A DNA stretch of 64,000 nucleotides, taken from assembly GCF_002113885.1 (NCBI RefSeq), contig NW_018408739.1, forward strand, positions 109,515-173,514, in the 5' to 3' direction. Both the position numbers and the translations under genes were made by a program. Of this stretch, positions 11,068-64,000 are shown piece after piece. Within the stretch, counting starts at the first letter, position 1; every line of letters starts with the position of its first letter. The DNA is from Mizuhopecten yessoensis (taxonomy: Eukaryota). The notes under the pieces were generated by a model. That model had not been told where the DNA came from, ran no database searches, and saw nothing but the letters and a program-made list of their open reading frames with translations.

Positions 11068-11305
11068 CTTGAGAAATCAACGTAGAATAAACGCTTGAAC
11101 TTGATTACATTATATGACTTTTTAGGAAGGAATTTTATTTCCAACGGGTCCCATTCCTCTTAAAAAGAACGTATTGATATAGTTTCATTATAAAATTAGA
11201 AAAATAACATAATAGGCATACTCTGCGGCATTTCCAATTTGTAGTATCTATACCGCAGACCTAACTACTTGATTTCAGAGTTATCGCCCTTGCGTAAACA
11301 AAGAG
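11068..11305. promoter_or_regulatory. Putative bidirectional promoter shared by FBXL12-like and LACTB
   Basis: The two start codons are divergent and only 238 bp apart (minus-strand ATG at 11067, plus-strand ATG at 11306). Confidence 0.7.
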
Positions 11306-24314: not shown

Positions 24315-24777
24315 CTCTAAAGTTTCTTTATGCTACCAGAATGCCACATGAACATGTAACTGGTCTTTTCTTTTCTAAAAGAGCTCTTCCCACTTAAGAC
24401 TCGGATGCTTTTATAATGATAAATAGGTTTAATTTGTTTGATTTGTTACAGATTTGAATGAATGAATTATAGAAAGAATGCAACTCGCTGGTTCTATCAA
24501 AGCTTTGTTTATGTTATTGATATAGGTAAGAAGTACCATAATTATATCCGGCATTTTTGCTGCTCTCAATGTCCCTTTTTGTTTACTCAAGATGACTATT
24601 TTTATACAGGTTTAAACTTTGAGATCTAGAAATATGTAACAATTTAACTTTCGAGAGATATTGTCCTGGATGTTAACTGCCGAATATATATTCCAGTGTA
24701 CAGTAAAGGTAGAAATATTGACGATAAGTAGTATCCACAATTGAATTTGTCACAATTTATGTATCGACATATTTGTA

Positions 24778-25653
24778 TCACCTGTACCAGTACATATACC
24801 GGTATACCTGTACCAGTACATATACTGGTACACCTGTACCAGTACACCTGCACCAGTACATATACCGGCATACCTGTACCAGTACATAGACGGGTATACC
24901 TGTACCAGTTCACCTGTACCAGCACATCTGTACCAGTTCACCTGTACCAGCACATCTGTACCAGTTCACCTGTACCAGTACATCTGTACGAGTTCACCTG
25001 TACCAGTACATGTACCGCTATACCTGTACCAGTACGTATACCGGCATACCTGTACCAGTACATATACCGGTATACCTGTACCAGTACACATGTACCAGTA
25101 CACCTGTACCAGTACACCTGTACCAGTACATCTGTACCAGTTCACCTGTACCAGTACATATACCGGTATACCTGTACCAGTACACATATACCAGTACACC
25201 TGTACCAGTACACCTGTACCAGTACATCTGTACCAGTTCACCTGTACCAGTACATATACCGGTATACCTGTACCAGTACACATATACCAGTACACCTGTA
25301 CCAGTACACCTGTACCAGTACATCTGTACCAGTTCACCTGTACCAGTACATATACCGGTATACCTGTACCAGTACACATGTACCAGTACACATGTACCAG
25401 TATACCTGTACCAGTACACCTGTACCAGTACATGTACCGGTATACCTGTACCAGTACACCTGTACCAGTATACCTGTACCAGTACACATGTACCAGTATA
25501 CCTGTACCAGTACACCTGTACCAGTACATGTACCGGTTTACCTGTACCAGTACACCTGTACCAGTATACCTGTACCAGTACATGTACCGGTATACCTGTA
25601 CCAGTATACCTGTACCAGTACATATACCGGTATACCTGTACCAGTACACCTGT
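24778..25653 (+). repeat. 14-bp minisatellite (cacctgtaccagta) with 96-bp higher-order units, downstream of LACTB
   Basis: About 60 units. Higher-order starts recur at 25081, 25177, 25273 and 25369. Confidence 0.95.
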
Positions 25654-25934
25654 CATTTAAGATATAATTTAAAACAATCACAACTGCCAAAATACCGACC
25701 TACATACGTGCTTGCAAGATATTTTCTTTGTTTTGTTAAATTTCTTATTCAGATTGTTATCATTGTTTATTGATGAACTTTGCCCATCAATTATTGTTTT
25801 TGATTAACCTAGTCATGTTTCCAGCATTATAAAAACCTAATATAACATATACATGCATTATAAACTTTTAATTTACAAGTGTTGATTGTTTTACATGTTC
25901 CCTTGTATGAAGTATCTCAGATATTGCAGCTTAA

Positions 25935-32264: not shown

Positions 32265-35200
32265 ATGTTAAGGATACTTGTGCTGTTAGTTGTCTGGTGT
32301 AGATCAACAACAGGTAAGATTTGCACTACGACATTACGTGGTTAATAACCATTTGTCTGTTCAAAATAACGCATCGTATTCCTACAAACCATGCGTGTCT
32401 TGTTGGGTCATTGATAAAACCTCTTACACTACTTGATTATAGATGGAAACGTTTCGAAATGTTTAGATTATAATTACAAAACCATCAAAAAATATAATCT
32501 TGTATGACTCATTGCTCTCTCACATTTCATCACGTTGTCTCTCGATTATTTTGACTTTACTTCTGTTATTCGATTCGATTTTTTCCTTATCGTTTATCTT
32601 GTCTTTCTTTCGTACGGTCATACATGTACATGAACGTGTATGTATAACCTTTTGTCGTTCGTTTCTTCTAAGCTTTTAACTATCATGTCTAACGTTTTTT
32701 CATTCATTTCTGCTAAAGCTGTATCAATTATTTCTTAACGCCTCGTAATTCTTTTTGTCATACGTTCTGTCATCATATTTGTTAAGAGTCTTTCGTTCTG
32801 TCGCCCGGGTTTTCTTATTTTTCTAACATTTCGATTGGCATTCTTGCATTCGTTTTATCCTGCTTTCTGTAATTTTGATCAATCCTTTGTACTATTTTGT
32901 TTCGTATTTCTCTAAATTGTCCCTTTAAAAATTGTAATGAAAAGTAAAAAAAATAATGGTTTTCTTGTTGAACTCTAGCTATATATTTCACACATTTAAA
33001 CACACCTGTAATAACAGTCAGAAAACTAGCGTTATGGGTTAGTGTGTTTTCACAGAATACTCGAAAGGACTGACACTTTAACCCAGAAGATTTGTTTTTT
33101 TGAAATAGTCCATATACATAGATTATTAAAAAGTACAGGAGTCCATCATTACTAACCTGAATTTGTATGTTAAATAGGTTTTTTTTTCAAACGTGCATTA
33201 TCAAGTGGAATTTTCGTAAAAACTGCGGCTGGCATACATTATATTTATCGTACATCGTGTACCGATCTTCTCTCTCAGAAGATTACGTTGTTACTATATT
33301 GTTGACTCTTAAACATGCAGTTAAAAACACATCTGCGTGCCCTGGGAAAATAATTGAGTGAAAATAGTGCAACATGTGACGATATTGAGCGTGATCAGGG
33401 TATTCTGAACTTTAAAATTAATGCTATTATAATTCGAAAAAATAATTTCAAGTTTGCAGGATCTGCTTCTGATTAGGAGTTTTGTGGCAAGATTATAAAA
33501 ACAACTTACTTCACTTAATTGTCCCTTTTAAACGTTGTTACGTGCCTCAATAAGTCAGCTATCTCACAAAATGGAGCATATCTACGTTATTTAGTAAAAC
33601 GTGAAAAGTTGAATTAATATGTACATATCAACAGTACATGTATCTATACATCTATGTAAACATGAGGATTGAATATAAGTATTTGTCATTGATACCCATC
33701 AAACTTATAAATAAAGTCTGTTGAATCTTATCACGATTAGACATTAGAAACGAGTATCATATCAACCTTTGTTCCTGTGAGGACGAAACATATTTACTTT
33801 TGTATTGACTTTATTTTTATTGTAAAGTAAATCTTGATTTGCATATTTATATTGACATTGGATCTTACAAAATGCAAAGTTTGACAAACCCTTTCGTCAC
33901 GTCAGTGGATAATATAAAAAGTTAATGGGAACTTTTGAAGTGCACTTTTGTATAAATACTTCTGTCTAATGAAAAGTGCACACAGACAAACACTGCCTAA
34001 CCAATGGTTCTACAAACCAAGCAAACAGCGAACTGCACTTGTCTGACCTTTGTAGACACTCTATCTCTAAATGTACTTCTAGTTGTAGGACAAGCTATTC
34101 CGTCTTTGCGTATTGCAGAGTTATCTTCTCTTGGGAGCAGGTATTGATTGTTACGTTATTGGTTGGTGTGAAAAAATTACGTCGTTTTCTCAAACATGGT
34201 TAATGACGTTACTCTCACAAACAAGTGACATAGCAATCGATACCTGCTCCCAAGTGAAGATAACTCTGCAATATGCAAAGACGGAATAGGTCCATGTGAT
34301 TCTAAAAAACAAGCTTTTCTGCACGACACACGAATATTTACTGCATACGTATTATGTTAACTCTAACTGTATATTTAATGTTCAGGACAAACTATAGACC
34401 CATGATGTACTAAAAACTATGCTATTTTGCATGAGCCCTTGAGGTCAACAACATACGTAGCAGGTTAACTCTAAATGTACTGTTAATTTTCAGGACAAAC
34501 TATTCCGTCTTTGCGTATTGCAGAGTTATCTTCTCTTGTGAGCAGGTATTGAATGTTACGTCATTGGTTTGTGTGTAAAAATCACGTCGTTTTCTTAAAA
34601 ATTGATGACGTTACTCTCACAAACAAATGACGTAACAATCAATACCTGCTCACAAGAGCAGATAGCTCTGCAATACAAAAAGGCGGAATATATGAGTCCA
34701 TGTGATCCTCAAAACTATGCTTTTCTGCATGACACCTGGAGGTCAACAGCATACGTAACAGGCTAACTCTAAATGTACTTTAAATTTGTTACGACAAAAT
34801 ATGATGTTTTGCATGAACCCTGGAGGTTACCTACATACTTCATATGTTAACCCGCAGTCTTTTAAGTTTCAGGAAAAAATATAGATCCGTGTGAACCTCA
34901 AAATTATGATGTTTTGGATGACCCCTGGAGGTCAACTGCATACGTCACATATGGCGTATACAAGAATGACGTCCTTATAAGAGAAGGCTGGTACAGGTCT
35001 ATGTCTGGAGCCGGGGGCACCATTCCATCATCAGCACCAAAGTCTTATCAAAGGTGTGGCACGCGGAACCCCGTCTGGATGTTTGACAGTGAGTTTACAG
35101 TTGATAGCACAGCCTTATTTATTTAAACAACCTTTATAGAATACCCACCTCCCCAGGTAATGGACCCTTCATATTTATCAATTATGGACTTGTTGAGGTG

Positions 35201-44200: not shown

Positions 44201-47200
44201 TGGCAACAAATCAGTTTCGTTTATGGATTACGTTATTATAACATATCTTGCTTGCGTTTGATGCAAACAGTATTATTAACATCATTATGTAAAAACTGGT
44301 CGTGTACTGATAAAATTGTTGTTTGAATAGATGAAGTTTGTCAGTGAATGTTCTTTGTTATAGACATATATCAGAAATAAAATCATTCTGAATACAACTT
44401 ATATCGTTCATATATATATATATATGAGCATAGTCTGCAAAGTAAACATGTTTTCTGCTTATATCATTTATTCCAATAAATACATACATTTGTGGGGGGC
44501 CGGGGGGACCGGGGNTAAAATTACACAGAAATTCACACACACAGTTAACGTGAAATTGTCAATTTCGAAGGAACCAGACATATTTGGTAGTTTTATTTAG
44601 TACAATTTTAAACAAACACACACATATTATATAGATATCGAAATTCTATTTATGTTAAATATTTCTGCAGTAGACAGTAGGTGGTAGTACAGCATACATA
44701 TGCATCAAATCCAATAGCCGTATTTGGTTTGGAAGTATGTATAACACTGTACGTCTAACGGCTACAGTTTCGAAGTCTTGTATATATAGCATATTTAAAA
44801 CATGACAATTGTTAATCTACAATTTCCAACATTATCCTTACAAAACTCAAAAACAAAACTCAAAATCGAGCGATGATAAGTTCCAACACTTCAAAAATGT
44901 GTTTATTTCTTATCATGAATTCAGGTTCAACGTTATATATGTAATTTATTATTACATTATTAATATGTATTAATTAATATATGTTTTTTGTAGGATAAAG
45001 ACTGTCGATCAGTCCCTTTTTAGGGAGAACATTGACCTAACAGACGCCGGATTGACTTTGCCCCGGTTCTGTAAGTGTAGTGAGGACTCGGCTTTCACCA
45101 AAAATGTGACATGTAGTGTCAACACGGAGTCAAATCCATGCGTCACCCAAAGTACGGACGGATTTTTCCAAACTTGCGACTCAACCAGACAAAAAAGATC
45201 GAGTTCCCTTGAGCGGTACAGGAGAGCATCACCGGCCATCGATGTCATCCCTAAATTTCCAATTATTTTTGGGAGCGACATTGATGACGAACCTCAGGTA
45301 TTTAGTGATATAAATATAATTGATTGTTTTCAGTGTCAAACTTAAGACCGTTTCATGCCCAAGGGCGTAGGATAAGGATTTTCAAAGCTTAGAAACCATT
45401 GCGATTGGACTGGCTAACATTTTAAAAGTATCAGCTTTTCCCTAAGTTTTTTTGTTGAATACGGATCTTTCAGCGAGATTAAGCATTCCTCATATTTGCA
45501 AACATTAGCACTAAAAAAGTAATCTCAACAATACACATTTATTTAATTTTTCTGAAATATTAACATGGATTGGCTTGAAATTAAATTTTCATGCAAAATA
45601 TCATTTTTCTTTGAAGTCTCTCTCCTGGAGAAATGGGTGGAACGTAATAATAGCAAGAGTTGCCTGTATCGCCTACCTTACCGCTAGTAAGTTCTTACAG
45701 AAGTGTGCGGAAGTATTGCCATTCACTGCTAGCGGGAATGACGCCGGTGTGACGTCATGCATGGAGGACATACGGGTATGTAAGACATGGAATCCGTGGT
45801 TAAGATAGCCGTATGGGGAAATAGGAAAGACAGGCAAAATCACAGCATGTTCTACCCTCTTAGATTCTTCCATTGCCATAAAACATAACGGTTTTAGTTA
45901 AAAAGCAGGACACACTAAAATCGTTGTCATTGTATATTAATTGAGCTGGAATAAGCTTAAGTTTCTCTGATGCTTTTCATGATTTATCAATCTCTAATTT
46001 CGCAGTCCAGAAAATAGCTTACCACCCATATCTTTCAGTATGAGATGTATCTAATCGACCTTGACATGTATCTGCATTATTAAAACAAGTCATCTCTCAG
46101 GCACATTAAAAATTTCAAATAAATTACAAATTTAGCTGATTACTGAATAAAGACTCATGCATGCTTATAAAACACTCAAATGTTTTATCATTGTGTTATT
46201 TAATTTTCAATATTCGCTATTTATGATAATTCGTGAGTTCTTCGTATTACCGTGACATTATGACCATGAGAGAATAAATGTCTTTCACAAATAAGCAATT
46301 ACAATTATAAACCTTAATGTATATGGCATATTTGGTTGTTAAGCTGATTGGAGATACCAGATACATGGAAACAACTGTGGCATCCCTAGCAACAAGCTGT
46401 CGTCTCATAGCTGTGAAACTTGAAAATCTCACAAAGACAGACTCATCAGACGGAACGCCGGGCAAATCCATACTTGATGAGATGCTAGAACTCGACTGCC
46501 CAAACAATTGTTCGGGACATGGGGATTGTTTTAATGGTAATGACATTCAAAGTTAAAACCATATCTACAAACTATTAAAATGGTTCAATTCGATTTCAGA
46601 TTTCTGTAATAACAAGTTTGTGCCTGGTGAATTGTGCGAGAAAATTACGTCGTTTTCTCAAAAATTGATGACGTTACTCGCACAAACAAGTGACGAAACA
46701 ATCAATACCTGCTCCCAAGAGAAGATAACTCTGCAATACGCAAAGACGGAATACTGTAGACAAGGAAATGTCTGACGCAATTAACGTTCGCCTTTTTTGC
46801 ACTCCCAAATAAGGGCGTATTTATTATGACAACGAATCTTTGAACACATGGAATTTATGATTACACGTAATATTAGCACTGGGCGTACATGAATGTTATC
46901 GGCAAAGAGCGAAAATTGGACTGGGCGAAAGTTTCCCGGTAAACAGAGATGATACAGCTTTTAGGCCATGCACTACTAGGTTTTATTTTCACAACTTGAC
47001 AATCCCTAAAAGTGTTGATCAGGATCATTTATTTAACACTCTGAATAATAGCTGGATGGACTAGCTGTCACTCTGTAGCAAAGTTCACAGTCTCAAACTC
47101 AGTTTAGCTAGACCTTCGAAGTCTGGAGTAACCAAGATCAATAGAACTATTCGATTAAACTCATAATCAATCGGTGCCACAAGCGGTGTGGGAGTTACCT

Positions 47201-50200
47201 ACTCTTACGGGACACCTATTTTGGTGTTTCGGGATCCAATGCATTGTATTTCATGATGATTCATTTTTCAGCGGTTCATGTGATTGTTCGTTATGCGATC
47301 ATGAGATCATATTTCATCCTGCATGTTTTCGAAGTTTTATGAATTTAAACATTGTACATCTGGAAAAATCTCGCCCAATCAAATATTCGCCCTTTTCCGA
47401 TTAAGTAAATGTTCGCCGAATGTTGATTTCGCCCTTCACGTGTGCTTAGTATACATTGTATTTTGTGTACTAATATGCGCTTTCATGATAACGTCGCCCT
47501 CATTGGCGAGGGTGACAAAAAGCGAAAGTTAAACTGCGGCGAACATTTCACGGTGTACGAACATTTCACGGTATTCACTATTTTACTCTCCGTCTAAGTT
47601 AATAATAACCCACTCTAGAGAGATTTTAATAAATATTCTTCCATAGAATAGATGAACAATGTCGGTGTTTTAGTATCCCTCTGATGTATGGTACTCTTTG
47701 TTTTAAATGTGTTCCTATAGGCTCCTGTGTCTGTACTGGAGGGTTCGAAGGTCATGACTGTTCCTTAGAACGGACCATGCCCCCTGTTGTGTCGGCAGAG
47801 ACAAATCCCGGACTTTGTGCCACCGACAAGTATCCTTGCAGCACATTTTACATCTCTGGAGAGAACTTTGCCAGGACGAACGTCACATGTAAAGCTGTCC
47901 ATTTCTCTGTAAGTCGGTTCGTGTTTATCGTTCTGCAGTATTACCAATGACAACGACATCTATTCAGAGATAAATGTTTTAAACCTTGTCATATTACCAA
48001 CACTCGTGGAGGTATTGGTCCACCATGTAAATCATTCTTATGTTCATATTCTGTCCTAGTTTTATCGATTTTGAGTTCGAACTAAGGGTTTGTTGATACA
48101 CGAGATAATTCATTGTATGCGGGAAAGATAATGACATATTATTTGCATTTTGCTATACTAACATCTTTCCTTCTAGAACACGTGGTCTAATTATCTTTGT
48201 ACTTTTTAAAAGTCTCGGTTTAATTTTGTATATTCTGTCCTAAGATAATCGTTCTTCAGTTTGGGTTACTGAATTGCTGGCACTTCGGTATTGCCCATTT
48301 TACCTAGAAGATTGCCTTATATTTATCTTAACAAATAAACACATTCATATCAGATCACTGCGGCTGCCGGCTATACGTTGGATTCCAAGAACGAGACTTT
48401 TCCCGCCGATTCGCTCGCTGGAGGTATTGGTTGTTCGTGTACTGTGCCAGAGTCACTGAGAAGAAAACGATCTGTTGACCCCGACGTTGTCCTTGCTGAC
48501 GGGTTTTTTCTCAGTGTTTCCAACGATGGGGTGACATTTAGTGACGATGTTGTCGTCATAAGGTACAACTCGACATGCTACACGTGCAACACGACTGCCA
48601 TCACGTGCGCAGAGCAGGTACGTTACCTGACAATTCTTAAACATTATGATTTCCGTTGCTTCTCCGATAATCTTATTGACTTTATGGAGAGTACCTTACA
48701 ATAAACTTGCATTCATTCCATATCATTTCATGAATTTATTTGTAGTGAGTTTCATGAAGGCAAATGAAATTGAAGTAACTTCCAACTAGATATTTTTTTT
48801 ACATGATTAAGAAAGCTATTTAACAAAACTTGTGTCATAAAAACAACGAAAGTCAACGTAATACAAGCGTCAGTAAATTAAACGGACAGAACCATTTCTG
48901 TTATGTTAGCCATGCTGAGAGTATGCTAAGACAAACCTTTTTCCTACGGGAATGGTGTTATATACAATGTTTATAGACGAAACAGATTATACATATAATT
49001 ATGGTTGCTACTTATTTTTTTAATTTGCTGAAGACTATAATTTGCATTTCCACATTAAAATATTATGGTAAAAGTATTGACGAATGTAATTAAAACATAT
49101 TACGTTATTGATATGAATTACGGTATATGTTACAATCAATATACTTAAGTATCTATCTGAGGTTCTAATTGTTACAGAGCACCTGCCAGACTACGGTCAG
49201 CTCAAGTTCAACAACGGTTACTTCCACAACACATCGTCAAATGACGTCACCCACAACTATTCAAACATCGACAATTACTACCGCTATACCTAATACTATT
49301 TCAACTAATACTGACGACGCTTCAACTACAACATCTAAACCGACCACAACCAAACAGACAATTTCAACTAACTCCCAGTCCCTTACTACTACATCAACTC
49401 CAACCTCTACATCAGTTAAAACCACTTCACTCACTTCAACAGACTTACCAAATACGAACACTTTACCAACTACATCTCAGACTACGACCGATAGACCCAT
49501 TACAACTACAACTCCAGTTACACCAAATACATCAACTACAACTACTCCACCAACTAAAACTACTCCACCAACTACAACCACTCCACCAACTACAGCCACT
49601 CCACCAACTACAGCCACTCCACAATCTACAGCCACTCCACCAACAACAGCCACCCCACCAACTACAGACACTCCACCAACTACAGCCACTCCACAAACTA
49701 CATCCATTCCACAAACTACAGCCACTCCACAATCTACAGCCATTCCACCAACTACAGCCACTCAACAAACTACAGTCACTACACAATCTACAGCCACTCC
49801 ACAAACTACAGCCACTCCAACAACTACAGCCACTCCACAAACTACAGCCACTCCACCAACTATAGCCACTCATCCAACTACAGCCAATCCACAAACTCCA
49901 GCCACTCCTCCAATTACAGCCACTCCACCAACTACAGCCAGTCCATCAACTACAGCCATTCCACAAACTACATCCATTCCACAAACTACAGCCACTCCAC
50001 AATCTACAGCCACTCCACCAACTACAGCCACTCCAACAACTACAGCCACTCCACAAACTACAGCCACTCCTCCAACTACAGCCACTCCGCCAACTACAAC
50101 CACTCCACCAACTACAGCCACTCCACAAACTACAGTCACTACACAATCTACAGCCATTCCACAAACTACAGCCACTCCACAATCTACAGCCATTCCACCA

Positions 50201-53200
50201 ACTACAGCCACTCAACAAACTACAGTCACTACACAATCTACAGCCACTCCACAAACTACAGCCACTCCAACAACTACAGCCACTCCACAAACTACAGCCA
50301 CTCCTCCAACTACAGCCACTCCGCCAACTACAACCACTCCACCAACTACAGCCACTCCCCCAACTACAGCCACTCCACCAACTACAGCCACTCCACAAAC
50401 TACATCCATTCCACAAACTACAGCCACTCCACAATCTACAGCCACTCCACAAACTACAGCCACTCCACCAACTACAGCCACTCATCCAACTACAGCCAAT
50501 CCACAAACTACAGCCACTCCTCCAATTACAGCCACTCCACCAACTACAGCCACTCCATCAACTACAGCCATTCCACAAACTACATCCATTCCACAAACTA
50601 CAGCCACTCCACAATCTACAGCCACTCCACCAACTACAGCCACTCAACAAACTACAGTCACTACACAATCTACAGCCACTCCTTCCCCCAACTACACTCC
50701 ACAATCTACAGCCATTCCACCAACTACAGCCACTCAACAAACTACAGTCACTACACAATCTACAGCCACTCCACAAACTACAGCCACTCCACAATCTACA
50801 GCCATTCCCCCAACTACAGCCACCCCACAAACTACAGCCACTCACCCAACTCCAGCCACTCCACCAACCACAGCAACCCCACCAACTACAGCCCCTCCCC
50901 CAACTCCAGCCCCCCCACAATCTACAGCCACCCCACAATCTACAGCCACCCCACAAACTCCAGCCACCCCACAACCTCCAGCCACCCCTCCAACTACAGC
51001 CACGTCACCAATTACAGCCACGCCACCAACTACAGCCACTTTTTTTTTTTTTTTTTCCAATTACAGCCACTCCAACAACCACAGCAACTCCACCAACTAC
51101 GGCCACTCCACCAACAACAGCCACACCACCAACTACAGACACTCCACCAACTACAGTCACTCAACAAACTACAGTCACTCCACCCACTACAGCCACTCCA
51201 CCATCTACAGCCACTCCACAATCTACAGCCACCCCACCAACTACAGCCCCCCCACAAACTACAGCCTCTCCACAAACTACAGCCACTCCACCAACTACAG
51301 CCACTCCACCAACTACAGCCACTCCACCAATTACAGCCACTCCACCAACTACAGTCACTCCACCAACTACAGCCACTCCACCAACTACAGCCACTATACA
51401 AACTACAGCCACTCCGCCAACTACAGCCACTGCACAAACTACAGCCACTCCACGTACTACAGCCTCTCCGCCAACAACAGTCATTCCGCCAACTCTAACC
51501 ACTCCACTAATTACAACCACTAAACCACCTATAACCACTCCACCAATTTCAACCATTTCATCAAGTAAAACCACTCCACCAACTAAAATAACCACACCAT
51601 CTCCAACCACTTTATCAACTACCACCACTCCACAAACTACAACCACTCTATTAGCTGATACCACTTCATCAAGTGAAACTACTCCATCAACTAAAATTAT
51701 CTCATCCCCTAAAACCACTACAACAACTAAAATAACTTCGACAAGTAAAACTACTACCCCAACTACAACCACTTCACAAAGTAAAGCTACTACCCCAACT
51801 ACAACCACTCCACAAAGTAAAACTACTACACCAACTGCAGCCCCTTCACCAAGTAAAGCTACTTCCCGAACTACAAAAACTTTAACAACTACAACCACCA
51901 CTAGAGGAGCAACCACTAAACCAAACATTAAACCAACTACCTCTACTATACCTAAGAAAACCTCATCGACCAAATCAACAACAAGAGTTAGAAATGTAGT
52001 GACATCGACGTTGATACCAGATTCGACAACATCAACAAACGCAGAAGGTAAGCTTCTTACACTCATGCTTACATCTCGTCATTGTTTTTACAGAAAAAAT
52101 GGCGTATTAACGATTCCTGAACTACTTCAAAAAACAATTATAAATTGGAATTCTAACTTGCATGTAAATCTCTTCCATGAATATTTTTTTTTCATTTTCA
52201 AAAAGAAAACCCATACTTTGGGGAACTTTTACGACAACGAAAAGCATATCAAAGATAAAAAAAAAAAACAAACACACACAATAATTTGTGAGTAGGAATG
52301 CGACAGAACTGTATTCCAACCCCTTAATATTCGGTTACTATATGATCGCTGTAAAGTTCAATTACGAAACTACCAGATCAGCGGTAGTTTTCTGGCAGTT
52401 TATTACAGAGGATTGTCGGTCTTTTTTAAACATATACAGTCTTAAGGTATATCGTTTTCTGTCAATGATTGTCATTTGATCTGTGCGCCATTGGGGTACA
52501 TCGTTTACTGCCAATGATTGTCATTAATTTAATTTGTGCGCCATTGAGGTACATCGTTTGCTGCCGATGATTGTCATTATTTTAATTTGTGCGCCATTGA
52601 GGTACATCGTTTACTGCCAATGATTGTCATTAATTTAATTTGTGCGCCATTGAGGTACATCGTTTACTGCCAATGATTATCATTAATTTAATTTGTGCGC
52701 CATTGAGGTACATCGTTTACTGCCGATGATTGTCATAAATTTAATTTGTGCGCCATTAAGGTACATCGTTTACTGCCAATGATTATTATTTAATTTGTGC
52801 GCCATTGAGGTACATCGTTTGCTGCCGATGATTGTCATTAATTTAATTTGTGCGCCATTGAGGTACATCGTTTACCTCCGATGATTGTAATACATTTGAT
52901 TTGTGCGGCATTGGGGTACATTGTTTACTGCCGGTGATTGTAATACATTTGATTTGTGCGGCATTGGGGTACATCATTTACTGCCGGTGATTGTCATTTA
53001 TTTGATTTGTGCGGCATTTGGGTACATCGTTTACTGCCGATGATTGTCATAAATTTGATTTGTGCGGCGTTGGGGTACATCGTTTACTATCGGTGATTGA
53101 ACATGTATTACTGATGTCTAATTTCTCTGTTTTCTATTCCAGTTGACTGGTCTAAGATTGCCCTAATCGCGGTCATAGGGACAGGAGCGCTGGCTGTTAT

Positions 53201-54290
53201 TGTGGTACTTGTGCTTGGGACGATGCTCATTAGGGCAAAGTCTAAAAGGTATTGTATACTTTGTAAACGGGTCTAGTATACTGTACATAGAAATATTGTG
53301 TATACAATATTAAATGTTACACTGCATATTGTAGTTAAAATTTTACACTGTAAATAAAAAATTATATATACTGTACATAAATGTAACATTGCATACTAAA
53401 GTTATAATGTTTTTTTTTACACTTTAAATAAAAGTTTAACATATACTGTATTTAAACGCTACATTGGATACTGAAGTAAAATGTACATATAATTTGTATC
53501 TCGTGTAAAAGTTATTTCCTGACCTTACATTTCTATACTTATTGTCCTCGACGACAATACCGCCTACAAAGTGTGTGTCTCTTGTTATCGTTGAAATTTA
53601 TTCGCAAAGTACATGAATTCATCTCTGAAACTTATGCATAAATATATGTTACACGCAATAATACATAGTAATAATGTTTAGTAATATTCTGGGCCTGATG
53701 GAGTACTTTTGTTCCATTTCAAAAAAAAATTAAAAAAAAATGGCAAGGATGTTACATTGTCAAAGGGATTGGGCAACTTTTGTTTGCATCCTATAATCAT
53801 TTCATAGACGTTTTTCGTGATGAATCGTTTTAAGTATTATACAAATTCATTCGTACCAAACGTATAAACACACCGATATTCGTTTTGTTCTGGTTTGGGT
53901 TATTCTTTCTGTTTTCTTTCTCTCAATTTGTATCAGATTTTAATATATTTCTTTATTCCTAGGTCTAAAGATAAAAGCAGAAATCACTCAGGCGACATGA
54001 CGAGACAGCCAAATATCGTTCCTGGAAACCGTCCCAACCATACAGATAATTTCAGCCACCAAAGTCCATTTCACGAATTATCGGGGCAAATTAACGGTAC
54101 AAACAATGCTCAACAGGGAAATATCCAAAGTTCCCAGAAAAGTCCCTTCCAGGGATACGGACAGGAGTACGATGGGTTCAGCTACAAGTCCCCGGATGTT
54201 TCCAATGTTTATCCGAGTCTCCAGAGAGATAGTGTCCATCCACAACCGTCCGCACCTCCTGTCAAAGACATGCATTTACGATACTACTGA
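32265..54290 (+). CDS. VWDE-like (von Willebrand factor D and EGF domain) type-I transmembrane mucin with N-terminal UMOD/GP2/OIT3-like D8C-type domain, 20 exons, ~2080 aa; apparent frameshift at 51041-51056
   Basis: Exons 32265-32313 (signal peptide MLRILVLLVVWCRSTTG), 34873-35088, 35598-35753 (DPC..Y..L.DPWRS, GWYR, CGT..P.W, I.VKNC..FYVY.L), 36582-36644, 38093-38394, 39322-39408, 39691-39797, 40200-40482, 41213-41298 (C.S.NDPHMRTFDG), 41694-41757, 42838-43059 (TCNCGVAI), 43896-44098 (SSGLCG..DG), 44994-45297, 45617-45775, 46344-46536, 47721-47908 (CPNNCSGHGDC..G.C.C..GF.G.DCS, EGF-like), 48354-48617, 49178-52047 (PTS mucin), 53143-53248 (TM IALIAVIGTGALAVIVVLVLGTMLI), 53963-54290. All introns are GT-AG with matching phases, except a +1 shift inside exon 18. 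Confidence 0.85.
34098..34286. mobile_element. Palindromic MITE, copy 4
   Basis: Same TIRs and TA TSD. Confidence 0.85.
34503..34688. mobile_element. Palindromic MITE, copy 5
   Basis: Same TIRs and TA TSD. Confidence 0.85.
37298..37653 (-). mobile_element. Full-length tRNA-derived CORE-like SINE with (TTA)n tail
   Basis: Reverse complement of the 7132-7474 family. Confidence 0.85.
42280..42463. mobile_element. Palindromic MITE, copy 6 (degenerate ends)
   Basis: tccgtcttttcgtattgcagagttatct...tgcaatacgcaaagatgga. Confidence 0.8.
43482..43823 (+). mobile_element. TRIM (mini LTR retrotransposon) with tRNA-like Pol III promoter in both LTRs (Helenus-like)
   Basis: LTR1 43482-43610 ends ctgttaca. 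PBS tttggtacccagcg. PPT gaagaatggaggaa. LTR2 43698-43823 starts tgttacgg. Both LTRs carry an A-box (tggttagagcg) and a B-box (gggtcgaatcccg / gggttcgaaccccg). Confidence 0.75.
46632..46751. mobile_element. Palindromic MITE, copy 7 (left-truncated)
   Basis: Only the right two-thirds remain, ending ...GCAAAGACGGAA|TA. Confidence 0.75.
49530..51520 (+). repeat. Coding 18-bp tandem repeat (PPTTAT/PQTTAT hexapeptide, mucin PTS domain)
   Basis: Unit ccaccaactacagccact and variants, roughly 110 copies, with recurring higher-order blocks. Confidence 0.95.
52440..53098 (+). repeat. 53-bp minisatellite, ~12 copies, in the intron before the TM exon
   Basis: Unit atttgtgcgccattgaggtacatcgtttactgccaatgattgtcattaattta. 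Confidence 0.92.
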
Positions 54291-55111
54291 TGTGATGTGC
54301 TGAGAAGATCATCCGGAACCTTCCCTCACGTCTATGAGTGCTGGTTTTATATTCATAGGACATATTTTTATGGTCAAGCCTTTGTTGACACATGTTAACA
54401 TAAGTTCATGCCAGCTGAGGAGATATCGTAAGCTTTTGATAAATTAAGCTATAAGCTTTGGCTACACAAACTGCAGAGTTTCTTTGTTTTGTTTTCTGTT
54501 CTGGTTATTTTGTGCGAAAAGAATGTTCCTTTTTTCCGAAAAGTAACAAGTGTATTGCTGTGTAACAATAAACAGGGTATTGTCTGCTTTGTGCGACGTC
54601 ACTTCGGGTGTTTGCAAGGGATAAGCTTGAGATCCAATATTTGTTTTTATAAAGACTGTTATTTTTGACGATGGTAATTACTTATATTAATTACTTGAAT
54701 ACATACATGGAGGGTACATGGTTATCTCTATTCTGCTATCGACCAAGTCAATGACTAGGGTCCCTAGTCATTGCATTGCATGGTTATGGAAGTTAATAAT
54801 TATCTTAAGAAGTTACGTTATTAACGTTACAAATTAATGATCTATTTGATTTATAAATGAAAATCATATAACAAAATCTTATTACCGTAGGTGAAGAGGA
54901 ACACATAGAACGGAAACCTGTATCATCGCAAACTTTCTTTGCCATATATTTTTAAAATGTTGTTTTTATTGTACTGAAATTTAGTTTCAAAAGTTTAAAT
55001 ACACTAATTCATCGTTTTGAGATTATACAGTGCAAGTTTGTGATGTTCTGTTTGTTTACATGCAATTTGTAATCGCAATAGTCGATATTTGATATACCTG
55101 GCCTGTAATGC

Positions 55112-55117
55112 AATAAA
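55112..55117 (+). promoter_or_regulatory. Probable polyadenylation signal of the VWDE-like gene
   Basis: AATAAA followed by T/GT-rich sequence, ~820 bp after the stop codon. An alternative AATAAA lies at 54567. Confidence 0.4.
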
Positions 55118-56621
55118 GTGTATGTATTATATCTTTTTTGTTCAAATATGTACATTGCATGTTTATTTGTGTTTATCTAACAGGATTGTTTTAGTACTTC
55201 ACCTTTACAAAGGCTTTGCATGTGTTGTTGTTTAAAAACGTGTTTATCATAGCAAATGCCATATTGGAAATTTGTGTTTGATTCCGAGAGCTTGTTTCCT
55301 GCATGAAAGACTAGCAGGTAGTTAAGTTGTATATCTATTTACTAGAAACCAAACTAGGAACTTCTTTTTCTAGAGAAAAAAAAAGATCATTATAACAAAT
55401 TGACGATTCATAACACTGGGGCATTTTACTACAAATATAGAGCAAAAAAGAATTTAGGAACGATTTAAACAGAGACCCATGGAAAAGAACAAGACAAAGA
55501 CAGCTATATACCTTGATACTGTGCGAAGTGATATGGTTCAGACCACACCTGTCACAAAATAAACTTTAAATCTGGAATGGTGACACCCGCCTGAAAAAAA
55601 CCTGTATCCGCCCCTGATCATAAACAATGTTCTCAATGGAGTAAACACATGTCTTACTTACATGTTACTTACATGTTCTTAGGAAATAAAAAGATATGTT
55701 TCTAAACAGTTTTACTTAGTAAGCTATGTTATTTATTCAAATTATAGATTATTTCAATCAAATAATGACTATTTCATTGATACATCTGGGAAATGTCTTG
55801 GCTAACTTACACAAGGAACTGGACTTATGTTTGTATTCACACAGAGCTCCAAATATATGCTTGCAATATTAACTCCGTCTTTTATTTGTCCTAATTGTTA
55901 AAAAATACTTACATACTTAAACGATTGTTAAAGAGGACCGTTAAGGATTGATTTAAATTACAGTATCAGTCAGGCAGGTATACTGTTCTTTCTGTACTCT
56001 TTTAAATTGGTTACGGTGCTGCTTTTTTTTTACAGTTCGGCCTCCAACGGTAACGGGAAAAGGGAGTAACGCTTGATTGTGTAGGTTGATATCCCTAAGA
56101 AGGGTTTTTACTCATTCAACAAAACAGCATTTGTTTCCTTAACGATGTCGTATTAAAGGCTGTCCAGAATTTCTATATGTTTCTGAATGTGCAAGATGTT
56201 AAATAACGAGTATTTTATATAACATATTTATTGAATCGACATAATGGTCGTATTGCGCAGTAAAATGTTTACATTTGTTTACTCTGCTGGTGAAGTATCA
56301 TGCAGTCTCCGATATTTGCTCTAAGTTTGTAGCTGGACACTTGTAAAACTGCCATGGTTTACAAGAAAAAGTTATCACCCTAGTAACCGAAAAAAATAAA
56401 ATGTAAAAGTGTTTTATTGGTACACGTATTTCTTTTGTTGTATTTCTATATACTTTAGACCTCATAACACTTTAGAATTTGAATTTCATTTCTTGGACCT
56501 GTAGTTACACTGATGAGGTTTAAAATGGACGGAATTGTCATATGGTGCTGTAACGTAGTTACTTTGTTTGACCTTCTGCATTGAAAAACGTAATCTATAA
56601 ATAGAAGCTTATTGTATAAAT

Positions 56622-58871: not shown

Positions 58872-61800
58872 ATGTCGGTATTCCTGCTGGCGTTGGTGGC
58901 CCTGGCTACGGGTGTAAACGGTGAGTTTCACTTGTTAATTAATAATTCCATTCCTAAATACTGAATAAGAATTTCGGTTTCAAACTTTACTATACGATAT
59001 TTACTTCTTATCAGACACCATGACATATGACATAACATTAAGCCGGGCTTTCAAGATAAAAATAGCAACACGTAATATTGATGTCATTTATTATAATCTA
59101 TATAAAATATATAAAAATGTTGTTTAGAAATATTTTATTGCACATCGAGCCTTACTATTTTTTACTAACAAATGTGGTTTATGTACATATTCAACACCAA
59201 AAAAACGGTAATTTAATTATTATCATTAAAAAACATATACAGGTAGTAATAACAAAGTTAAGGATATTTGTGTTATAGTATTATAAACTGTCATGACTGT
59301 GGCTACTATCACTTACAATTAAACTCCTCAAAGTCTTATAACACATGATATACTAATCATCTGTCATTTTTGTGTAATATGCTTCGAATATTTTCTAAAC
59401 ATTTTCTTCATCAATCAAAATGACTGATGAAGGTGATAGGCACAAGTCATCGAAACGTTACACATCAAATTGTGACTGGTTGTGCTATACGATACCTATA
59501 TCTAAACACTGGCCTGTCTAAAACACGTATTACGTAGTTATAAGCTCATTTTGAAAATACAATGGGAAGCCAATTTTATAATTATTTAAGGAGCAATGTG
59601 GATCCCGACTTTCAGAAAACCATAGGAGATATTTATACAGAAATTAAATGAGATATCTTAACAATAAATGAGATTATATAGCGGTTCATTTAATTTCTAT
59701 CAAAGATTTTTTTATAGTAAATAAGGGATATTAAATATTATATAAGATATCCCATACTATATAGAATGTGTTATATAGTTTTATGAAATTCGGGATCGAC
59801 ATTGCTTCTTGAATGAATGTTAAGTTGGCTTGCCATAAAATACACAAGTTCAAAAATCTGAGTTAACTTAACGTTAAGCTGATCAGACTTTAAACTACTG
59901 AAGTGTTGAATATTTAAGCGATTTCTTTTATCACAAAATGTCTCCGATCAATTCTAAAATGGTAATTTAGGTCGCCAAAAGTCAAAATTATTCAGTTAAC
60001 AAATATGTTTTTACTACAAGCAGGTAAAGCAGTTATATCGAATGCTGTGGACGATGGACTTTCACAGAATTTCATTGCAGCTGCAGCAAGAATGGATTCC
60101 AACCTGAATGGTTGTACCGCCCTTTCTACACATTGTCGATCAGAGTGCGTACATGTAGACCCCCAGGGCTGTCCAGTGTGCTCTTGTCCTGACTCAGCTG
60201 GTAAGTATTTTGAAGGCAGAAATCAATTGATAGTGTGTGGTAATCTCAAAAAATTGTCAAGAATGAGAATCGCTCCGGTTTTGTTAAAGAAACGATGAAA
60301 GTTGACAAAATGATAGAATATCAGATAATGGTTAATTCGAGACATTGGCTAAAGAAGGCATAATCAAAGACAACAGCCTTCGAGCAAGGCAGATAGTCAG
60401 ACAGGTGATAATCTACATTACCAAACATGCTAACAGTATGTCTGATATTGGGGAAAGGTGGAATGGGAAGAGGGGCAGAATAAGCTATAAGCTAATGTTT
60501 GAATGTTAGTCAGCACACGAGGGAAGAGGGGGGGTATGGGGATATCTTTTTAAAAAAAGGTAGTTAGTGGCAGATCTTTAGAGACGAGAAGGATGGAAAC
60601 GTTAAAACTCAAACAACATTAAAACTGAATCTTTTGAATTTTTCAGTTTAATTTTTTAATAACACAATATTCTAAATATTATGTGTAATTTGAATCAAAA
60701 CAGATTTGATAAATAAAATATTTTAACTTTATATCTTCCAAATTTTGTTACAAAAAACAGTGTTTAACAATATTTGACGCATTCAGTATCGAGTTTTGTT
60801 AAATTTGTTTTTTTACGGGTGTTTTGACATCAATAACTTCAAAATTCAGTTGTATTGCATCAAGCATCATCTAGGTATGGTTTTGTATAAAAAAAATGTG
60901 AAATAAGCAGCATCATTTATTAAAACACATAACGTCTACTACTTCTAATATACATGAAATCGGAGGTTAAAATGTACTTTTGTATTTTACCTTAGCATCT
61001 ACAAGTCTGACACATTCAAGCACCGGAAAAGGAAGTAGCAGAATTACTTCCGGTAACAACAATGGCTGCAAACCGTTCCCTAAATCCTGTCACGCCGAAT
61101 GCACAAAAATTGATGACATAGGGTGTATCATATGCGACTGTTCAGGTATGAAACAGATTGCTTTCGTTAACAGATTAGTACATTATCGGAGTGAAATAAT
61201 AGAAATACAGGAAATAAGAAGTTCAAGACTCTCAGTAAATGATGCCATTTAAATAGGTCTAATAACGAAGAAGAGTTCCAGTTTAGAGATAGTTCCCTTT
61301 TTTCGAATTGAGAACTACCCTTTTAGATAAGACGAAGGGACAAGACAGTTTTAATGCCTGAAAGTTACTACATTTACCAAGATATCCATCTGTCCTTTTT
61401 CATGCTATCCATTTGTAGTTCCTTGATAACATCATTAATGAAGTGTAGGATTAGATATTTTCAGAACCAGAGATCTGCTATAGCTTAGCAAATAAATCGG
61501 TTTCATTTTTTTTAATTTTTTTTATTGAATCTTTGTATGGATTTTCTGTCAGAATCACCACCAGATACTATACCCGTTCATATTCATTTAAACAAATGTG
61601 CTTCAAAATTTAATTTGATGGTGAATATTGGTCTAACATAAACCTTAACTACTAATATGTTTGCAATATTCTCATGTGCAAACATGTTTCATTATACATT
61701 GATGTATATCAAAATGATTGCCATTATGTGATTTACATCAATTGATGGTTTTCTGGGTGTTAACGTTGTATTTTATTAGTCATATAAACAAATGACAAGG

Positions 61801-63511
61801 GAAAAGTTTTTGAATAATCCGGCAACACAATATTTTTTTCCTTTCTCCGTAGGTGTCCAGAGTAGCAGCCAATCAATATCCGCCGGAAGCGGAAGCAGTA
61901 GTGGTTCTTCCGGTAACAATAACGGTTGTTCAGCGTTTCCCAGATCGTGTCAAAGCGAGTGTATGAAGATCGATGACAGGGGGTGTATCGTGTGTGAGTG
62001 TTCAGGTAAGACAAGAAAAAACACAATCTTACAATTTAAGCATAAAGCTTTCAACAAACCTTCGTTTTGATAAAACCGCTGTCTAAATTCGATCACATCA
62101 ACATGCTTACCTCGTAAAATCTATTAACAAAAAGAGATATCAAAATCGAGTATATATTATCTCAAACGAATAAATTTAGGCGCCGGTTGCTCAAAAGTTT
62201 GCTAAGTATAACCATTGATTAGTGGAAAATTCAAACAGTTGCCACTAAAGAACAGGGTTTGTGAAACTAAAATATAACACATGTTTCTGATCTATCTTTA
62301 CACATTAATAGCAGTGGAATGAAATAAGATATTCTTGATTTCGTTGAATTCAAATTTTAAGATTTTACTGATCACTGGTTAACTCTAACCAACACTGAGC
62401 AACCACAAAGTATCTATGTTTTTTCACAATTAAAGAGTCGTTTACTGGAAGACATGAATAATATAACTGTTGGATGTTTACGGAAGGCATGTTAACAAAT
62501 ACAACGAGTTCCGGTCAGACCGGAAGTAACTCCGGAGTCGGATTTGCAGTAGGCGTTGTCTGCCCACAATTTAACAAGAACTGTGATCCAGCCTGTATCG
62601 GGGTGGATAGTGTTGGATGTATCGTTTGCTCCTGTTCAGGTAACTATACCTCCCTGTTATACAGGGTTTTATGTATTTATGGTTGATATTAGCTAAACAG
62701 TCCTTCTGTAAAGCATATACGTGTTATGATACCGTTGATATGTACGTGTATATTAAATTAAGGAGATACTCGGATATGTCAGTTAAATAATAGTATACTT
62801 AATGCATTCATTTCGATTGGTCCTTGGTATAATTCGTGACACTTACATCAACATATTATTATTTCTATTATTGATATTTCTATAAAAAACAATTTGTTCT
62901 TGTTTTGACAACAATGATGCACAAGACTTCCGACTACTTACACAGGTAGACCACGTACCTTACCCTCAAAATAAGTTTTTTTTGGCTTTTCCCATATGCA
63001 TCCTGACATGCAAATGTATGCAAAGTGTGGTGCAAGTTATGCGCATGTTTCTTTATGTCATAAACGGTGTGATTTTATCTGCATATGTATTTTTGCATTT
63101 AGTATTAAAGCGTGTGTTGGAATGAGGGCCCCGTTTTGTTTGTTTTGTTTTCTCTCCTTCTCCTTCATCTTTTACTATTATTTTTGTATTTATATTTGAG
63201 ATATACAATAGTCCGCGCCTCTGTAGAAAGACCTTATCGCAGGAAACAGGGAACCTGAACGACTCAATGTGCTGATTTGTTGTTGTAAATATACATTATT
63301 TCCTCTGATTTGTCTTTTCTCATTTTACTTAATTGACGACCAATTTAATCATACAACAATCATGTGTTGTGGGTGCTGTATTTGTACTCGGTTTTTCAAG
63401 GTCCTTCTCCAAATAATGTCTGTCCGGCAATACCACAAAATTGTCCATCATCCTGTTTGACCATCAATGCCGAGACCGGATGTGTATTGTGTTCATGCGC
63501 GGGCGAAACAG
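58872..63511 (+). CDS. Secreted cysteine-rich protein with antistasin-like 6-Cys repeats (5' part; continues beyond window)
   Basis: Exons 58872-58920 (signal peptide MSVFLLALVALATGVN), 60021 or 60024-60200, 60996-61145, 61853-62005, 62487-62639, 63401-63511. All internal exons are phase 1-1. Each encodes a linker (often Ser/Gly-rich) plus C-x6-C-x3-C-x7/8-C-x2-C-x-C, with a D/N-x2/3-GC motif. No stop codon was found in the window. Confidence 0.8.
59590..59808. mobile_element. Kolobok-like MITE
   Basis: TTAA|GGAGCAATGTGGATCCCGACTTTCAGAAAACCATA ... TATAGTTTTATGAAATTCGGGATCGACATTGCTTC. Confidence 0.65.
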
Positions 63512-64000
63512 GTTTGTATGTCAAAAACTCTCTTATTCTTGGAGTATTTTAGTTTCGTTAAACGATCACATTTAATAACAAACAGCATAGGCAATATTGT
63601 TTCTCCTTTTTTACACCATTGGAATATGTGTTTTATGTTATTTGAACCATACACCTGTTTGGATTTATTTCGTAAGAAACCTTCCCCGAATTCGGTGATT
63701 TCAAGTTTCGCAGCAAACGTTATTTTGAGCAAACATCTATGACATTTTATCAGTTTTAGAAATCGGACATAAAATGATTGACTGTGGATAAAACCTATTG
63801 CGTTGAAGATAGATAACTGTATAACTGCACAAAAACTTTCCCTTGCGATTGTACTATCAACCGATCGTTAATATTCTGTTTTTTTCTGAGCAAATATCAT
63901 GCAATTCTACTTACCACCTAACTTATGACGAATAAGCTTAATTTATTAACATTTTTACACATGCTGTTTAGATTATATGCAAAAAGATAAATTTAATGAT

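What the first reader, a model, noticed from the sequence alone, without database searches (positions are those of the whole stretch)
54207..54260. Transmembrane VWD mucin with tandem ESCRT late-domain-like motifs (YPSL and PSAPP) in its cytoplasmic tail
Seen in sequence: the tail ends ...SNVYPSLQRDSVHPQPSAPPVKDMHLRYY*. Established: YPx(n)L binds the ALIX V domain and P(S/T)AP binds the TSG101 UEV domain; such motifs drive budding in retroviral Gag, syntenin and ARRDC1. Inference: this giant D8C-VWD-EGF-mucin surface protein may recruit ESCRT directly, so that it is shed on extracellular vesicles into mucus or sorted to MVBs. That would be a potential vesicle-borne decoy or adhesion system. 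Short motifs can arise by chance in disordered tails.
Basis: partly seen in the sequence, partly recalled or inferred. Interest (0 to 1): 0.7.

Follow-up and report, generated by a model that had tools for sequence, protein, structure and literature searches.

The report
Scallop surface mucin's tail sorting motifs
A large scallop cell-surface mucin ends in a spliced cytoplasmic tail whose tyrosine motif and last three residues are shared with its sister genes in four scallop species and likely act as ordinary trafficking signals, while the second, virus-budding-type motif (PSAP) was seen only in this gene, so release on vesicles is possible but untested.

Summary
Bases 54207-54260 encode VYPSL…PSAPP in the last exon of a 20-exon, ~2,080-residue type I membrane protein (D8C-like, VWD, EGF, Ig-like, Thr/Pro stalk) of Mizuhopecten yessoensis. 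The transmembrane-to-tail splice is seen in contigs of two studies.

The two motifs differ in support. Y-P-x-[L/F/I]-x-R and a terminal R-[F/L/I/Y]-Y are kept in 8 of 9 sister-paralogue tails from four scallop species, in an exon with the same intron phases. PSAP is in 0 of 9 and lies in an 8-residue insertion. The sister variants (G/A before Y; F or I at +3) fit a YxxΦ adaptor signal better than an ALIX site, though this gene's VYPSL is ALIX-compatible. No orthologous tail could be retrieved, so PSAP conservation is untested.

The pair is rare in shuffles (2×10⁻⁴), but about one such tail per genome is expected by chance. Direct ESCRT sorting of membrane proteins is already known (E-cadherin, PAR1).

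Verdict: most likely inherited endocytic and export signals; a gained ESCRT late-domain pair has about 20% probability. The scan noted a similar motif cluster in an unrelated TMEM145 tail (e1-7682220), not in this gene.

The parts
32265..32313 (+). Exon 1: start codon and predicted signal peptide
   Evidence: Sequence and phase-consistent model; absent from RefSeq fragment P0012
34873..36644 (+). Exons 2-4: D8C/D10C-like Cys-rich head
   Evidence: Model; weak GP2 match E 0.051; D8C_UMOD below cut-off in paralogue P0008
38093..40482 (+). Exons 5-8: unnamed region between D8C and VWD
   Evidence: Model; matches P0012
41213..44098 (+). Exons 9-12: VWD domain (NDPH in place of GDPH)
   Evidence: PF00094 35.8 bits, above cut-off, in P0012
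44994..46536 (+). Exons 13-15: Cys-rich linker with two R-x-[KR]-R sites (residues 678, 687), helical region, first EGF-like unit
   Evidence: helices in the model of orthologue fragment P0004
47721..48617 (+). Exons 16-17: EGF-like unit, then IPT/TIG-like beta-sandwich with an RRKR site (residue 930) in a loop
   Evidence: PF25024 below cut-off; P0004 model mean pLDDT 86.7; weak Foldseek matches to TIG/Rel domains, E >= 0.003
49178..52047 (+). Exon 18: Thr/Pro mucin stalk, about 950 codons, 43% Thr; one net frameshift at poly-T 51040-51056 (likely assembly error)
   Evidence: its 3' end is joined to the TM exon in contigs
53143..53248 (+). Exon 19: transmembrane helix and basic stop-transfer stretch
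   Evidence: same intron phases (1 and 2) as the paralogue TM exons checked
53963..54290 (+). Exon 20, coding part: low-complexity cytoplasmic tail (S/Q/P/N/G-rich)
54168..54179 (+). YDGF: a second YxxΦ match, not shared with paralogues
54207..54227 (+). V-YPSL-Q-R: conserved Y-P-x-Φ-x-R element; fits both YxxΦ and YPxL
   Evidence: Aligned with sister tails in all three MAFFT modes
54246..54260 (+). PSAPP: P(S/T)AP match inside an 8-residue insertion relative to sister tails
54273..54290 (+). HLRYY-stop: conserved terminal R-Φ-Y; candidate ER-export (ΦC) or PDZ-type signal
   Evidence: 4 of 74 family tails end R[FLIY]Y against 0.04 expected, all in the sister clade
54291..55612 (+). 3' untranslated region covered by contigs
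   Evidence: poly(A)-type hexamers at 54567, 55112, 55558

Best explanation
This is a scallop VWD/EGF membrane mucin whose spliced tail carries two elements shared with its sister genes, which likely act as ordinary trafficking signals: YPSL likely as a YxxΦ signal for clathrin-adaptor uptake and endosomal turnover, and the terminal RYY likely as an ER-export signal, while PSAP, seen only in this gene, is of untested function. Shown: the exon, the splice, the motifs, their conservation in paralogues and the absence of PSAP there. Inferred route: the terminal hydrophobic pair binds COPII Sec24 for ER exit; furin-type convertases cut the three conserved R-x-[KR]-R sites in the Golgi; the O-glycosylated stalk holds the D8C-VWD head off the surface; AP mu subunits read Y-x-x-L and internalise the protein. 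If PSAP binds TSG101, the default outcome would be sorting into multivesicular bodies and degradation, with vesicle release as a minor branch.
For: Tree (quick search, SH-aLRT): the window gene groups with P0003 (Pecten maximus) and P0004 (Argopecten irradians) at 99, inside a 12-row scallop clade at 100. In the sister branch, 8 of 9 tails seen (P0005, P0157, P0006, P0007, P0014 and the last exons of L007, L009, L011) have Y-P-x-[LFI]-x-R and terminal R-[FLI]-Y. The ninth, P0002, ends early. None has P[ST]AP. The TM-exon and last-exon intron phases match where checked. C-terminally anchored alignment scores 15.0: 7 of 3000 shuffles reach it and none of 57 other family tails does (best 5.8). 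Position +3 varies among L, F and I, the set tolerated by AP-2 mu2 (PMC2133128, passages). A C-terminal hydrophobic pair binds Sec24 (PMC5464768, passages). Convertase-type sites are present in 14 of 14 relatives listed.
Against: Tail homology is weak without the anchor: 292 of 3000 shuffles reach the free-end score, and a profile of sister tails scores the window tail at 1.6 bits, with 258 of 5000 shuffles as high. The invariant proline at +1 is not required for YxxΦ but defines YPxL, which favours ALIX or another reader. YxxΦ matches are common by chance (62% of shuffles), and the review warns that such matches in long tails do not predict function. The sister tails are related and not independent. 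The ΦC signal is described for 10-15-residue tails and favours terminal valine; this tail has 114 residues and ends in tyrosine. No binding or localisation data exist.
Confidence: 0.55

Rival explanations
1. Dual late domain: this gene lineage turned an older [G/A]YPxΦ signal into VYPSL and gained PSAPP, so the tail binds ALIX and TSG101 directly and the mucin is loaded on exosomes or microvesicles.
For: The pair is rare in shuffles (2.3e-4; 7.5e-5 within 25 aa). Both differences from the sister tails move towards late-domain consensus. VYP precedes the ALIX-binding motifs of PAR1 and P2Y1. A PTAP in the E-cadherin tail drives TSG101-dependent vesicle loading. [LP]PxY motifs are in 6 of 74 family tails against 1.07 expected, hinting that family members repeatedly use endosomal sorting motifs. 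ALIX V and TSG101 UEV domains are in the genome.
Against: PSAP is in 0 of 9 sister tails and 1 of 74 family tails (an annelid protein, P0155). It was seen in one species only. 866 Swiss-Prot proteins hold P(S/T)AP and 624 of them are not listed as vesicle cargo. A likely extracellular scallop protein holds 25 P[ST]AP and 26 LYPx[LI] strings in one frame. Closely spaced viral LYPNL and PTAP (4 residues apart; 8 here) bound ALIX and TSG101 mutually exclusively and ALIX weakly. No expression or vesicle data.
Confidence: 0.2
2. The clade-wide Y-P-x-Φ-x-R is an ALIX (or other Bro1/V-domain) site for ubiquitin-independent lysosomal turnover, as in PAR1; PSAP is incidental and no vesicle release is involved.
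For: Y and P are invariant in all 9 motif-bearing tails (window plus 8 sister). Y, P and L are the essential residues of the EIAV motif (PMC8402826). PAR1 precedent.
Against: The M. yessoensis paralogue tails have F at +3 (4 of 4 rows: P0006, L007, L009, L011). All sister tails have G or A before Y, where the canonical types have L (LYPDL, LYPLTSL).
Confidence: 0.13
3. The shared elements are a tyrosine phosphorylation site and a C-terminal scaffold ligand (SH2- or PDZ-type) that couple the mucin to signalling or apical anchoring, not to traffic.
For: The terminal residues are the best-conserved feature. Sister tails are Tyr/Arg-rich. Vertebrate membrane mucins use tail tyrosines and PDZ ligands (recalled, no call).
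Against: Arg at position -2 does not fit the common PDZ classes (recalled). No partner was tested.
Confidence: 0.12

Closest known systems
Molluscan 'von Willebrand factor D and EGF domain-containing protein-like' (VWDE-like) family; RefSeq XP_021372479.1 (P0012) is a fragment of this gene; orthologues XP_033729966.1 (P0003) and XP_069106577.1 (P0004)
   Same: D8C-like, VWD, helical region, EGF and Ig-like order; conserved cysteines and R-x-[KR]-R sites; 71-75% identity to the orthologue fragments
   Different: The database model stops at exon 15 (725 aa), skips exon 14 and lacks signal peptide, stalk, helix and tail. The 114-aa tail is about twice as long as most sister tails and alone carries PSAP
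E-cadherin PTAP late domain (PMC9511404; passages read)
   Same: Type I adhesion-type membrane protein with P(S/T)AP in the cytoplasmic tail
   Different: There the motif is conserved in 32 vertebrates and tested by mutation; here it is seen in one gene of one species and is untested
PAR1 and P2Y1 YPX3L-ALIX sorting (PMC3341166; passages read)
   Same: V-Y-P context in a membrane protein
   Different: Those motifs have n=3 in an intracellular loop and lead to lysosomal degradation; here n=1 in a disordered tail
YxxΦ signals read by AP mu subunits, e.g. lamp-1, CD63, transferrin receptor (PMC2133128; passages read)
   Same: Tyrosine plus L/I/F at +3, as in all 9 motif-bearing tails
   Different: Invariant proline at +1 and arginine at +5; 88 residues from the membrane here; binding untested
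ΦC ER-export motif of ERGIC-53 and p24 proteins (PMC5464768; passages read)
   Same: C-terminal pair of hydrophobic residues (YY here; FY, LY, IY in paralogues)
   Different: Described tails are 10-15 residues and prefer terminal valine; a terminal tyrosine was not addressed in the passages read
Retroviral Gag PTAP plus LYPXnL, syntenin LYPSL, ARRDC1 (syntenin's sequence and ARRDC1 details recalled)
   Same: Motif letters and close spacing
   Different: Those are cytosolic or peripheral adaptors, several with repeated motifs and L before Y; this is a single-pass glycoprotein with one copy of each

Membership tests
VWDE-like molluscan membrane proteins | VWD domain | tested here: met
   PF00094 35.8 bits, cut-off 22.9, in P0012
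VWDE-like molluscan membrane proteins | EGF-like units after the VWD region | tested here: met
   Cysteines invariant in 50 of 50 aligned rows; PF25024 match below cut-off
VWDE-like molluscan membrane proteins | N-terminal D8C/D10C domain | tested here: inconclusive
   No Pfam hit on window exons or P0012; below cut-off in P0008; GP2 E 0.051
Membrane-bound mucin | Signal peptide, long Thr/Ser/Pro stalk, single TM helix and tail in one reading frame | tested here: inconclusive
   All parts present and stalk-TM-tail spliced, but one frameshift at a poly-T run is not crossed by any read
Membrane-bound mucin | Dense O-glycosylation | not testable with these tools
   Inferred from 43% Thr
TSG101 late domain | P(S/T)AP in a cytosolic disordered segment | tested here: met
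   54246-54257 in the tail exon
TSG101 late domain | Conserved against background divergence | tested here: inconclusive
   Absent in 9 of 9 paralogue tails; orthologous tails not retrievable
TSG101 late domain | Binds UEV; mutation cuts vesicle loading | not testable with these tools
   Needs experiment
ALIX late domain (LYPXnL) | Y-P-x(n)-L core | tested here: met
   YPSL
ALIX late domain (LYPXnL) | Hydrophobic residue before Y | tested here: inconclusive
   V here (L in types 1 and 2; V in PAR1); G or A in all 8 motif-bearing sister tails
ALIX late domain (LYPXnL) | L/I kept at the last position in homologues | tested here: not met
   F in 4 of 8 motif-bearing sister rows, all M. yessoensis; paralogues only
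ALIX late domain (LYPXnL) | Binds the V-domain pocket | not testable with these tools
   Scallop ALIX is available only exon by exon; no complex was folded
YxxΦ adaptor signal | Y plus bulky hydrophobic residue at +3, kept in homologues | tested here: met
   L, F or I in 9 of 9 motif-bearing tails; tolerated set from PMC2133128
YxxΦ adaptor signal | Binds AP mu subunit and drives internalisation | not testable with these tools
   Needs experiment
ΦC ER-export signal | C-terminal hydrophobic pair at the very end | tested here: met
   YY, FY, LY or IY in 9 of 9 full-length clade tails
ΦC ER-export signal | Short tail of 10-15 residues | tested here: not met
   114 residues here; sister tails 53-87

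The most novel reading that the evidence does not exclude
A scallop membrane mucin of about 2,080 residues evolved a retrovirus-style dual late domain from an older tyrosine sorting signal (G/A to V before YPxL, plus an inserted PSAPP), and recruits ALIX and TSG101 itself to bud onto extracellular vesicles that carry a VWD adhesion head on a long glycan stalk into mucus. Its sister paralogues, lacking PSAP, would be natural negative controls.
Probability: 0.2. Interest if true: 0.65.

Novelty: new member of a known kind. Interest (0 to 1): 0.36.

Why it matters
Molluscan VWDE-like proteins are numerous (528 representatives at E ≤ 1e-10 across the library). My searches found no paper on their tails or traffic. 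The work gives a complete gene model where RefSeq has a 725-residue fragment. It also shows a short tail signature, Y-P-x-Φ-x-R … R-Φ-Y-stop, kept across four scallop species, which can be tested directly. If the late-domain reading is right, it would be an invertebrate case of a mucin that loads itself on vesicles, with a visible evolutionary path. The principle itself, a membrane protein with a late domain, is already established for E-cadherin and PAR1, which limits the surprise.

Tried and rejected
Orthologous tails:
- Tail searches found nothing at 190-2000 aa or 59-189 aa. The full protein exceeds 2000 aa, so this is weak evidence.
- The metagenome scan gave 2 loci with 14-residue matches, judged spurious.
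- The Atlas gave no usable hit for this tail and only generic TM-protein leads under 0.9 for a sister tail.
- Scan look-ups by sequence and by nearby place were empty.
- The orthologue models P0003 and P0004 end before the membrane helix.

Expression:
- No RNA holder is on record.
- Raw-read runs X23 and X24 laid 0 reads, which is no test.
- The second lay was swamped by intronic repeats. It showed only pieces of exons 17 and 18 in one run, so splicing of exons 1-17 rests on phase consistency and P0012.

Genome-wide motif-pair pattern: 332 matches against 211 for the reversed control. Of the 100 listed, 20 were in frame (about 33 expected). Repeats dominate, so it is not usable as an enrichment test.

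Paralogues: no TM or tail exon was found within 20 kb after two of the C5506 modules (L002-L005), and P0008, P0009 and P0010 have none annotated. These are not counted among the 9 tails.

Other:
- The careful tree did not finish; the quick tree was used.
- No complex was folded, because scallop ALIX, TSG101 and AP mu domains were available only as separate exons.
- A mollusc vesicle paper held no relevant passage (PMC7760292), and the scallop vesicle search returned unrelated papers. Supplements were not examined; proteome tables there could bear on the claim.
- VIP36's KRFY ending and the lysosomal GYxxΦ rule are recalled and were not confirmed in the passages read.
- Shedding at the third convertase site was considered. 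It lies in a loop inside a beta-sandwich, so the halves may stay together; it is not claimed as release.

Full report
1. Observation. The exon begins at 53963. Contigs from two runs of two studies (RNA by the tool's guess) skip the 714-base intron between the transmembrane exon and this exon with GT..AG ends. They continue upstream into the end of the mucin exon and downstream through about 1.3 kb of untranslated sequence. The one variant in the coding tail is synonymous. Two raw-read runs laid no reads, which is no test. The tail exon has a single match in the genome.

2. The gene. Twenty exons from 32265 to 54290 join in phase. Exons 1-17 give 982 residues without a stop. Exon 18 is a Thr/Pro stalk of about 950 codons with one net frameshift at a 17-T run, which I read as a likely assembly error, unproven. 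The total is about 2,080 residues. RefSeq XP_021372479.1 (P0012, Mizuhopecten yessoensis) is a 725-residue fragment of this gene: it lacks exon 1, skips exon 14 and runs into the intron after exon 15. VWD passes the Pfam cut-off; EGF and D8C matches are below cut-off. A model of the orthologous fragment P0004 (mean pLDDT 86.7) shows helices, EGF-like strands and a beta-sandwich. The sandwich has weak matches to TIG/Rel domains (no match at E ≤ 0.001). Three R-x-[KR]-R sites lie at residues 678, 687 and 930, and such sites occur in 14 of 14 relatives listed. The third sits in a loop inside the sandwich.

3. Is the pair more than chance? In 200,000 shuffles of the 114-residue tail, YPx[LI] appears in 3.1%, P[ST]AP in 0.42%, the pair in 0.023%, and any two of the three late-domain classes in 0.3%. 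An animal genome has some thousands of membrane-protein tails (general knowledge), so about one chance pair, or about ten chance doubles, are expected. Shuffling also ignores proline clustering. As a caution from the same genome, a 2,161-codon frame on contig C1331 holds 25 P[ST]AP and 26 LYPx[LI] strings. It lies among Cys-rich exons with an ShK match above cut-off and VWC-like matches below it, so it is likely extracellular and out of reach of ESCRT. A genome-wide pattern count was dominated by repeats and showed no in-frame excess: 20 of the 100 listed.

4. Conservation. Orthologous tails could not be obtained, and the orthologue models P0003 and P0004 stop before the membrane helix. Paralogues were available. 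A quick tree of 45 rows (only hits covering over 400 core residues at over 180 bits, plus P0004 and P0005; P0012 left out as the window's own) places the window gene with P0003 and P0004 (99). That group is sister to a nine-row cluster from Mizuhopecten, Pecten, Argopecten and Ylistrum; together they have support 100. Nine tails of the sister cluster were seen, six proteins and three genomic last exons, some probably the same gene. Eight carry [G/A]-Y-P-x-[L/F/I]-G-R and end in R-[F/L/I]-Y. P0002 ends early and has neither. None has P[ST]AP. Three MAFFT modes align YPSL and the terminus and place PSAPP in an 8-residue insertion. The TM and last exons have the same intron phases (1, then 2) as in the window gene: both TM-exon ends in L007 and L011, the start only in L009. 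With the C-terminus anchored, 7 of 3000 shuffles reach the real score and none of 57 other family tails does. With free ends, 292 of 3000 do, and a profile of sister tails is not significant (258 of 5000). The homology therefore rests on two short anchored elements plus exon structure. In the wider family, 76 of 155 proteins had a detectable helix and tail, and 74 tails of 10 or more residues were counted: YPx[LI] in 3 (0.79 expected, all sister clade), P[ST]AP in 1 (0.12; an annelid protein), [LP]PxY in 6 (1.07), terminal R[FLIY]Y in 4 (0.04, all sister clade). The late-domain pair is not a family trait.

5. Mechanism. The conserved tyrosine element can be read two ways. For AP mu2, leucine is preferred at +3 and I, F and M are tolerated (PMC2133128, passages); this matches the L/F/I variation. 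Canonical ALIX types are LYPDL and LYPLTSL (PMC5995805, passages), which the G/A and F variants do not match. On the other side, proline at +1 is invariant here and is essential in the EIAV motif (PMC8402826, passages), and VYP precedes the ALIX-binding motifs of PAR1 and P2Y1 (PMC3341166, passages). This gene's VYPSL is thus compatible with both readers. A reference title seen indicates that EIAV budding uses both AP-2 and ALIX (title only). The terminal hydrophobic pair resembles the ΦC export motif that binds Sec24, although that motif is described for much shorter tails (PMC5464768, passages). I therefore rank first: ER export by the terminal pair, convertase processing, surface display, then tyrosine-dependent uptake and endosomal turnover (0.55; all steps inferred). 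A gained dual late domain with vesicle release comes second (0.2), ALIX-only lysosomal sorting third (0.13), and signalling or scaffold use last (0.12). ALIX V and TSG101 UEV domains are encoded in the genome, as expected for an animal. For a viral peptide with LYPNL and PTAP four residues apart, the two partners bound mutually exclusively (PMC10132805, passages); the gap here is eight residues.

6. Known systems and novelty. A P(S/T)AP motif in the E-cadherin tail recruits TSG101 and loads the protein on vesicles. The same paper counts 866 Swiss-Prot proteins with the motif, 242 of them listed as vesicle cargo (PMC9511404, passages). The principle is therefore known, and the motif alone predicts little. 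Searches for this family in bivalves returned two transcriptome or proteome listings, a broad list with no VWDE mention and nothing for the species. Searches were seen as listings only, apart from the papers named above and PMC7760292 (passages, nothing relevant). The scan noted a similar motif cluster in an unrelated TMEM145 tail; I did not test it. What is new here is modest: a full gene model, a scallop-wide tail signature, and a candidate recent gain of PSAP that has natural negative controls in the sister genes.

7. Verdict. Observation confirmed; interpretation partly supported; new member of a known kind; interest 0.36.

Noticed in passing
G000:C1331:141600-149600 (L027:1646-9543), flanks L031-L034: A giant gene of Cys-rich modules (ShK above cut-off, VWC-like below) contains a Pro/Gly/Thr/Tyr repeat region; one 2,161-codon frame holds 25 P[ST]AP and 26 LYPx[LI] strings. 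It is likely a secreted structural protein; no signal peptide was checked.
   Followed up: partly
L007:2670-3260 (G000:C5506 about 1320470-1321060): The end of a paralogue's last exon, a 117-base unit coding the YPSF…RLY-stop segment, is repeated five times head to tail; only the first copy would be translated. Real duplication or assembly artefact.
   Followed up: partly
G000:C5506:1183876-1461857: A cluster of six VWD modules of the sister clade; some appear chained as two VWD-EGF-Ig modules separated by a Thr-rich stalk, as in Pecten P0002.
   Followed up: partly
P0014 (Ylistrum balloti) tail: The tyrosine unit is duplicated within the tail; the first copy has degenerated to YPSD and the second reads YPRI.
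   Followed up: partly
window 11273-24311 (+): Exons of a serine beta-lactamase-like gene (PF00144 above cut-off in two frames), likely the ordinary animal LACTB (name recalled).
   Followed up: no
window 6166-6855 (-): A leucine-rich-repeat exon.
   Followed up: no
window 59966-63549 (+): Repeated short Cys-rich exons separated by Ser/Gly linkers, antistasin-like by eye; no Pfam hit at E 0.05 for the three tested.
   Followed up: no
window 34090-34690, 37298-37650, 42280-42434, 46638-46757: Intronic interspersed repeats with very many matching contigs in RNA-like runs.
   Followed up: no
window 52480-53100 and 24730-25770: Non-coding tandem arrays: units of about 57 bases in the intron before the TM exon, and a short-unit array after the LACTB-like gene.
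   Followed up: no
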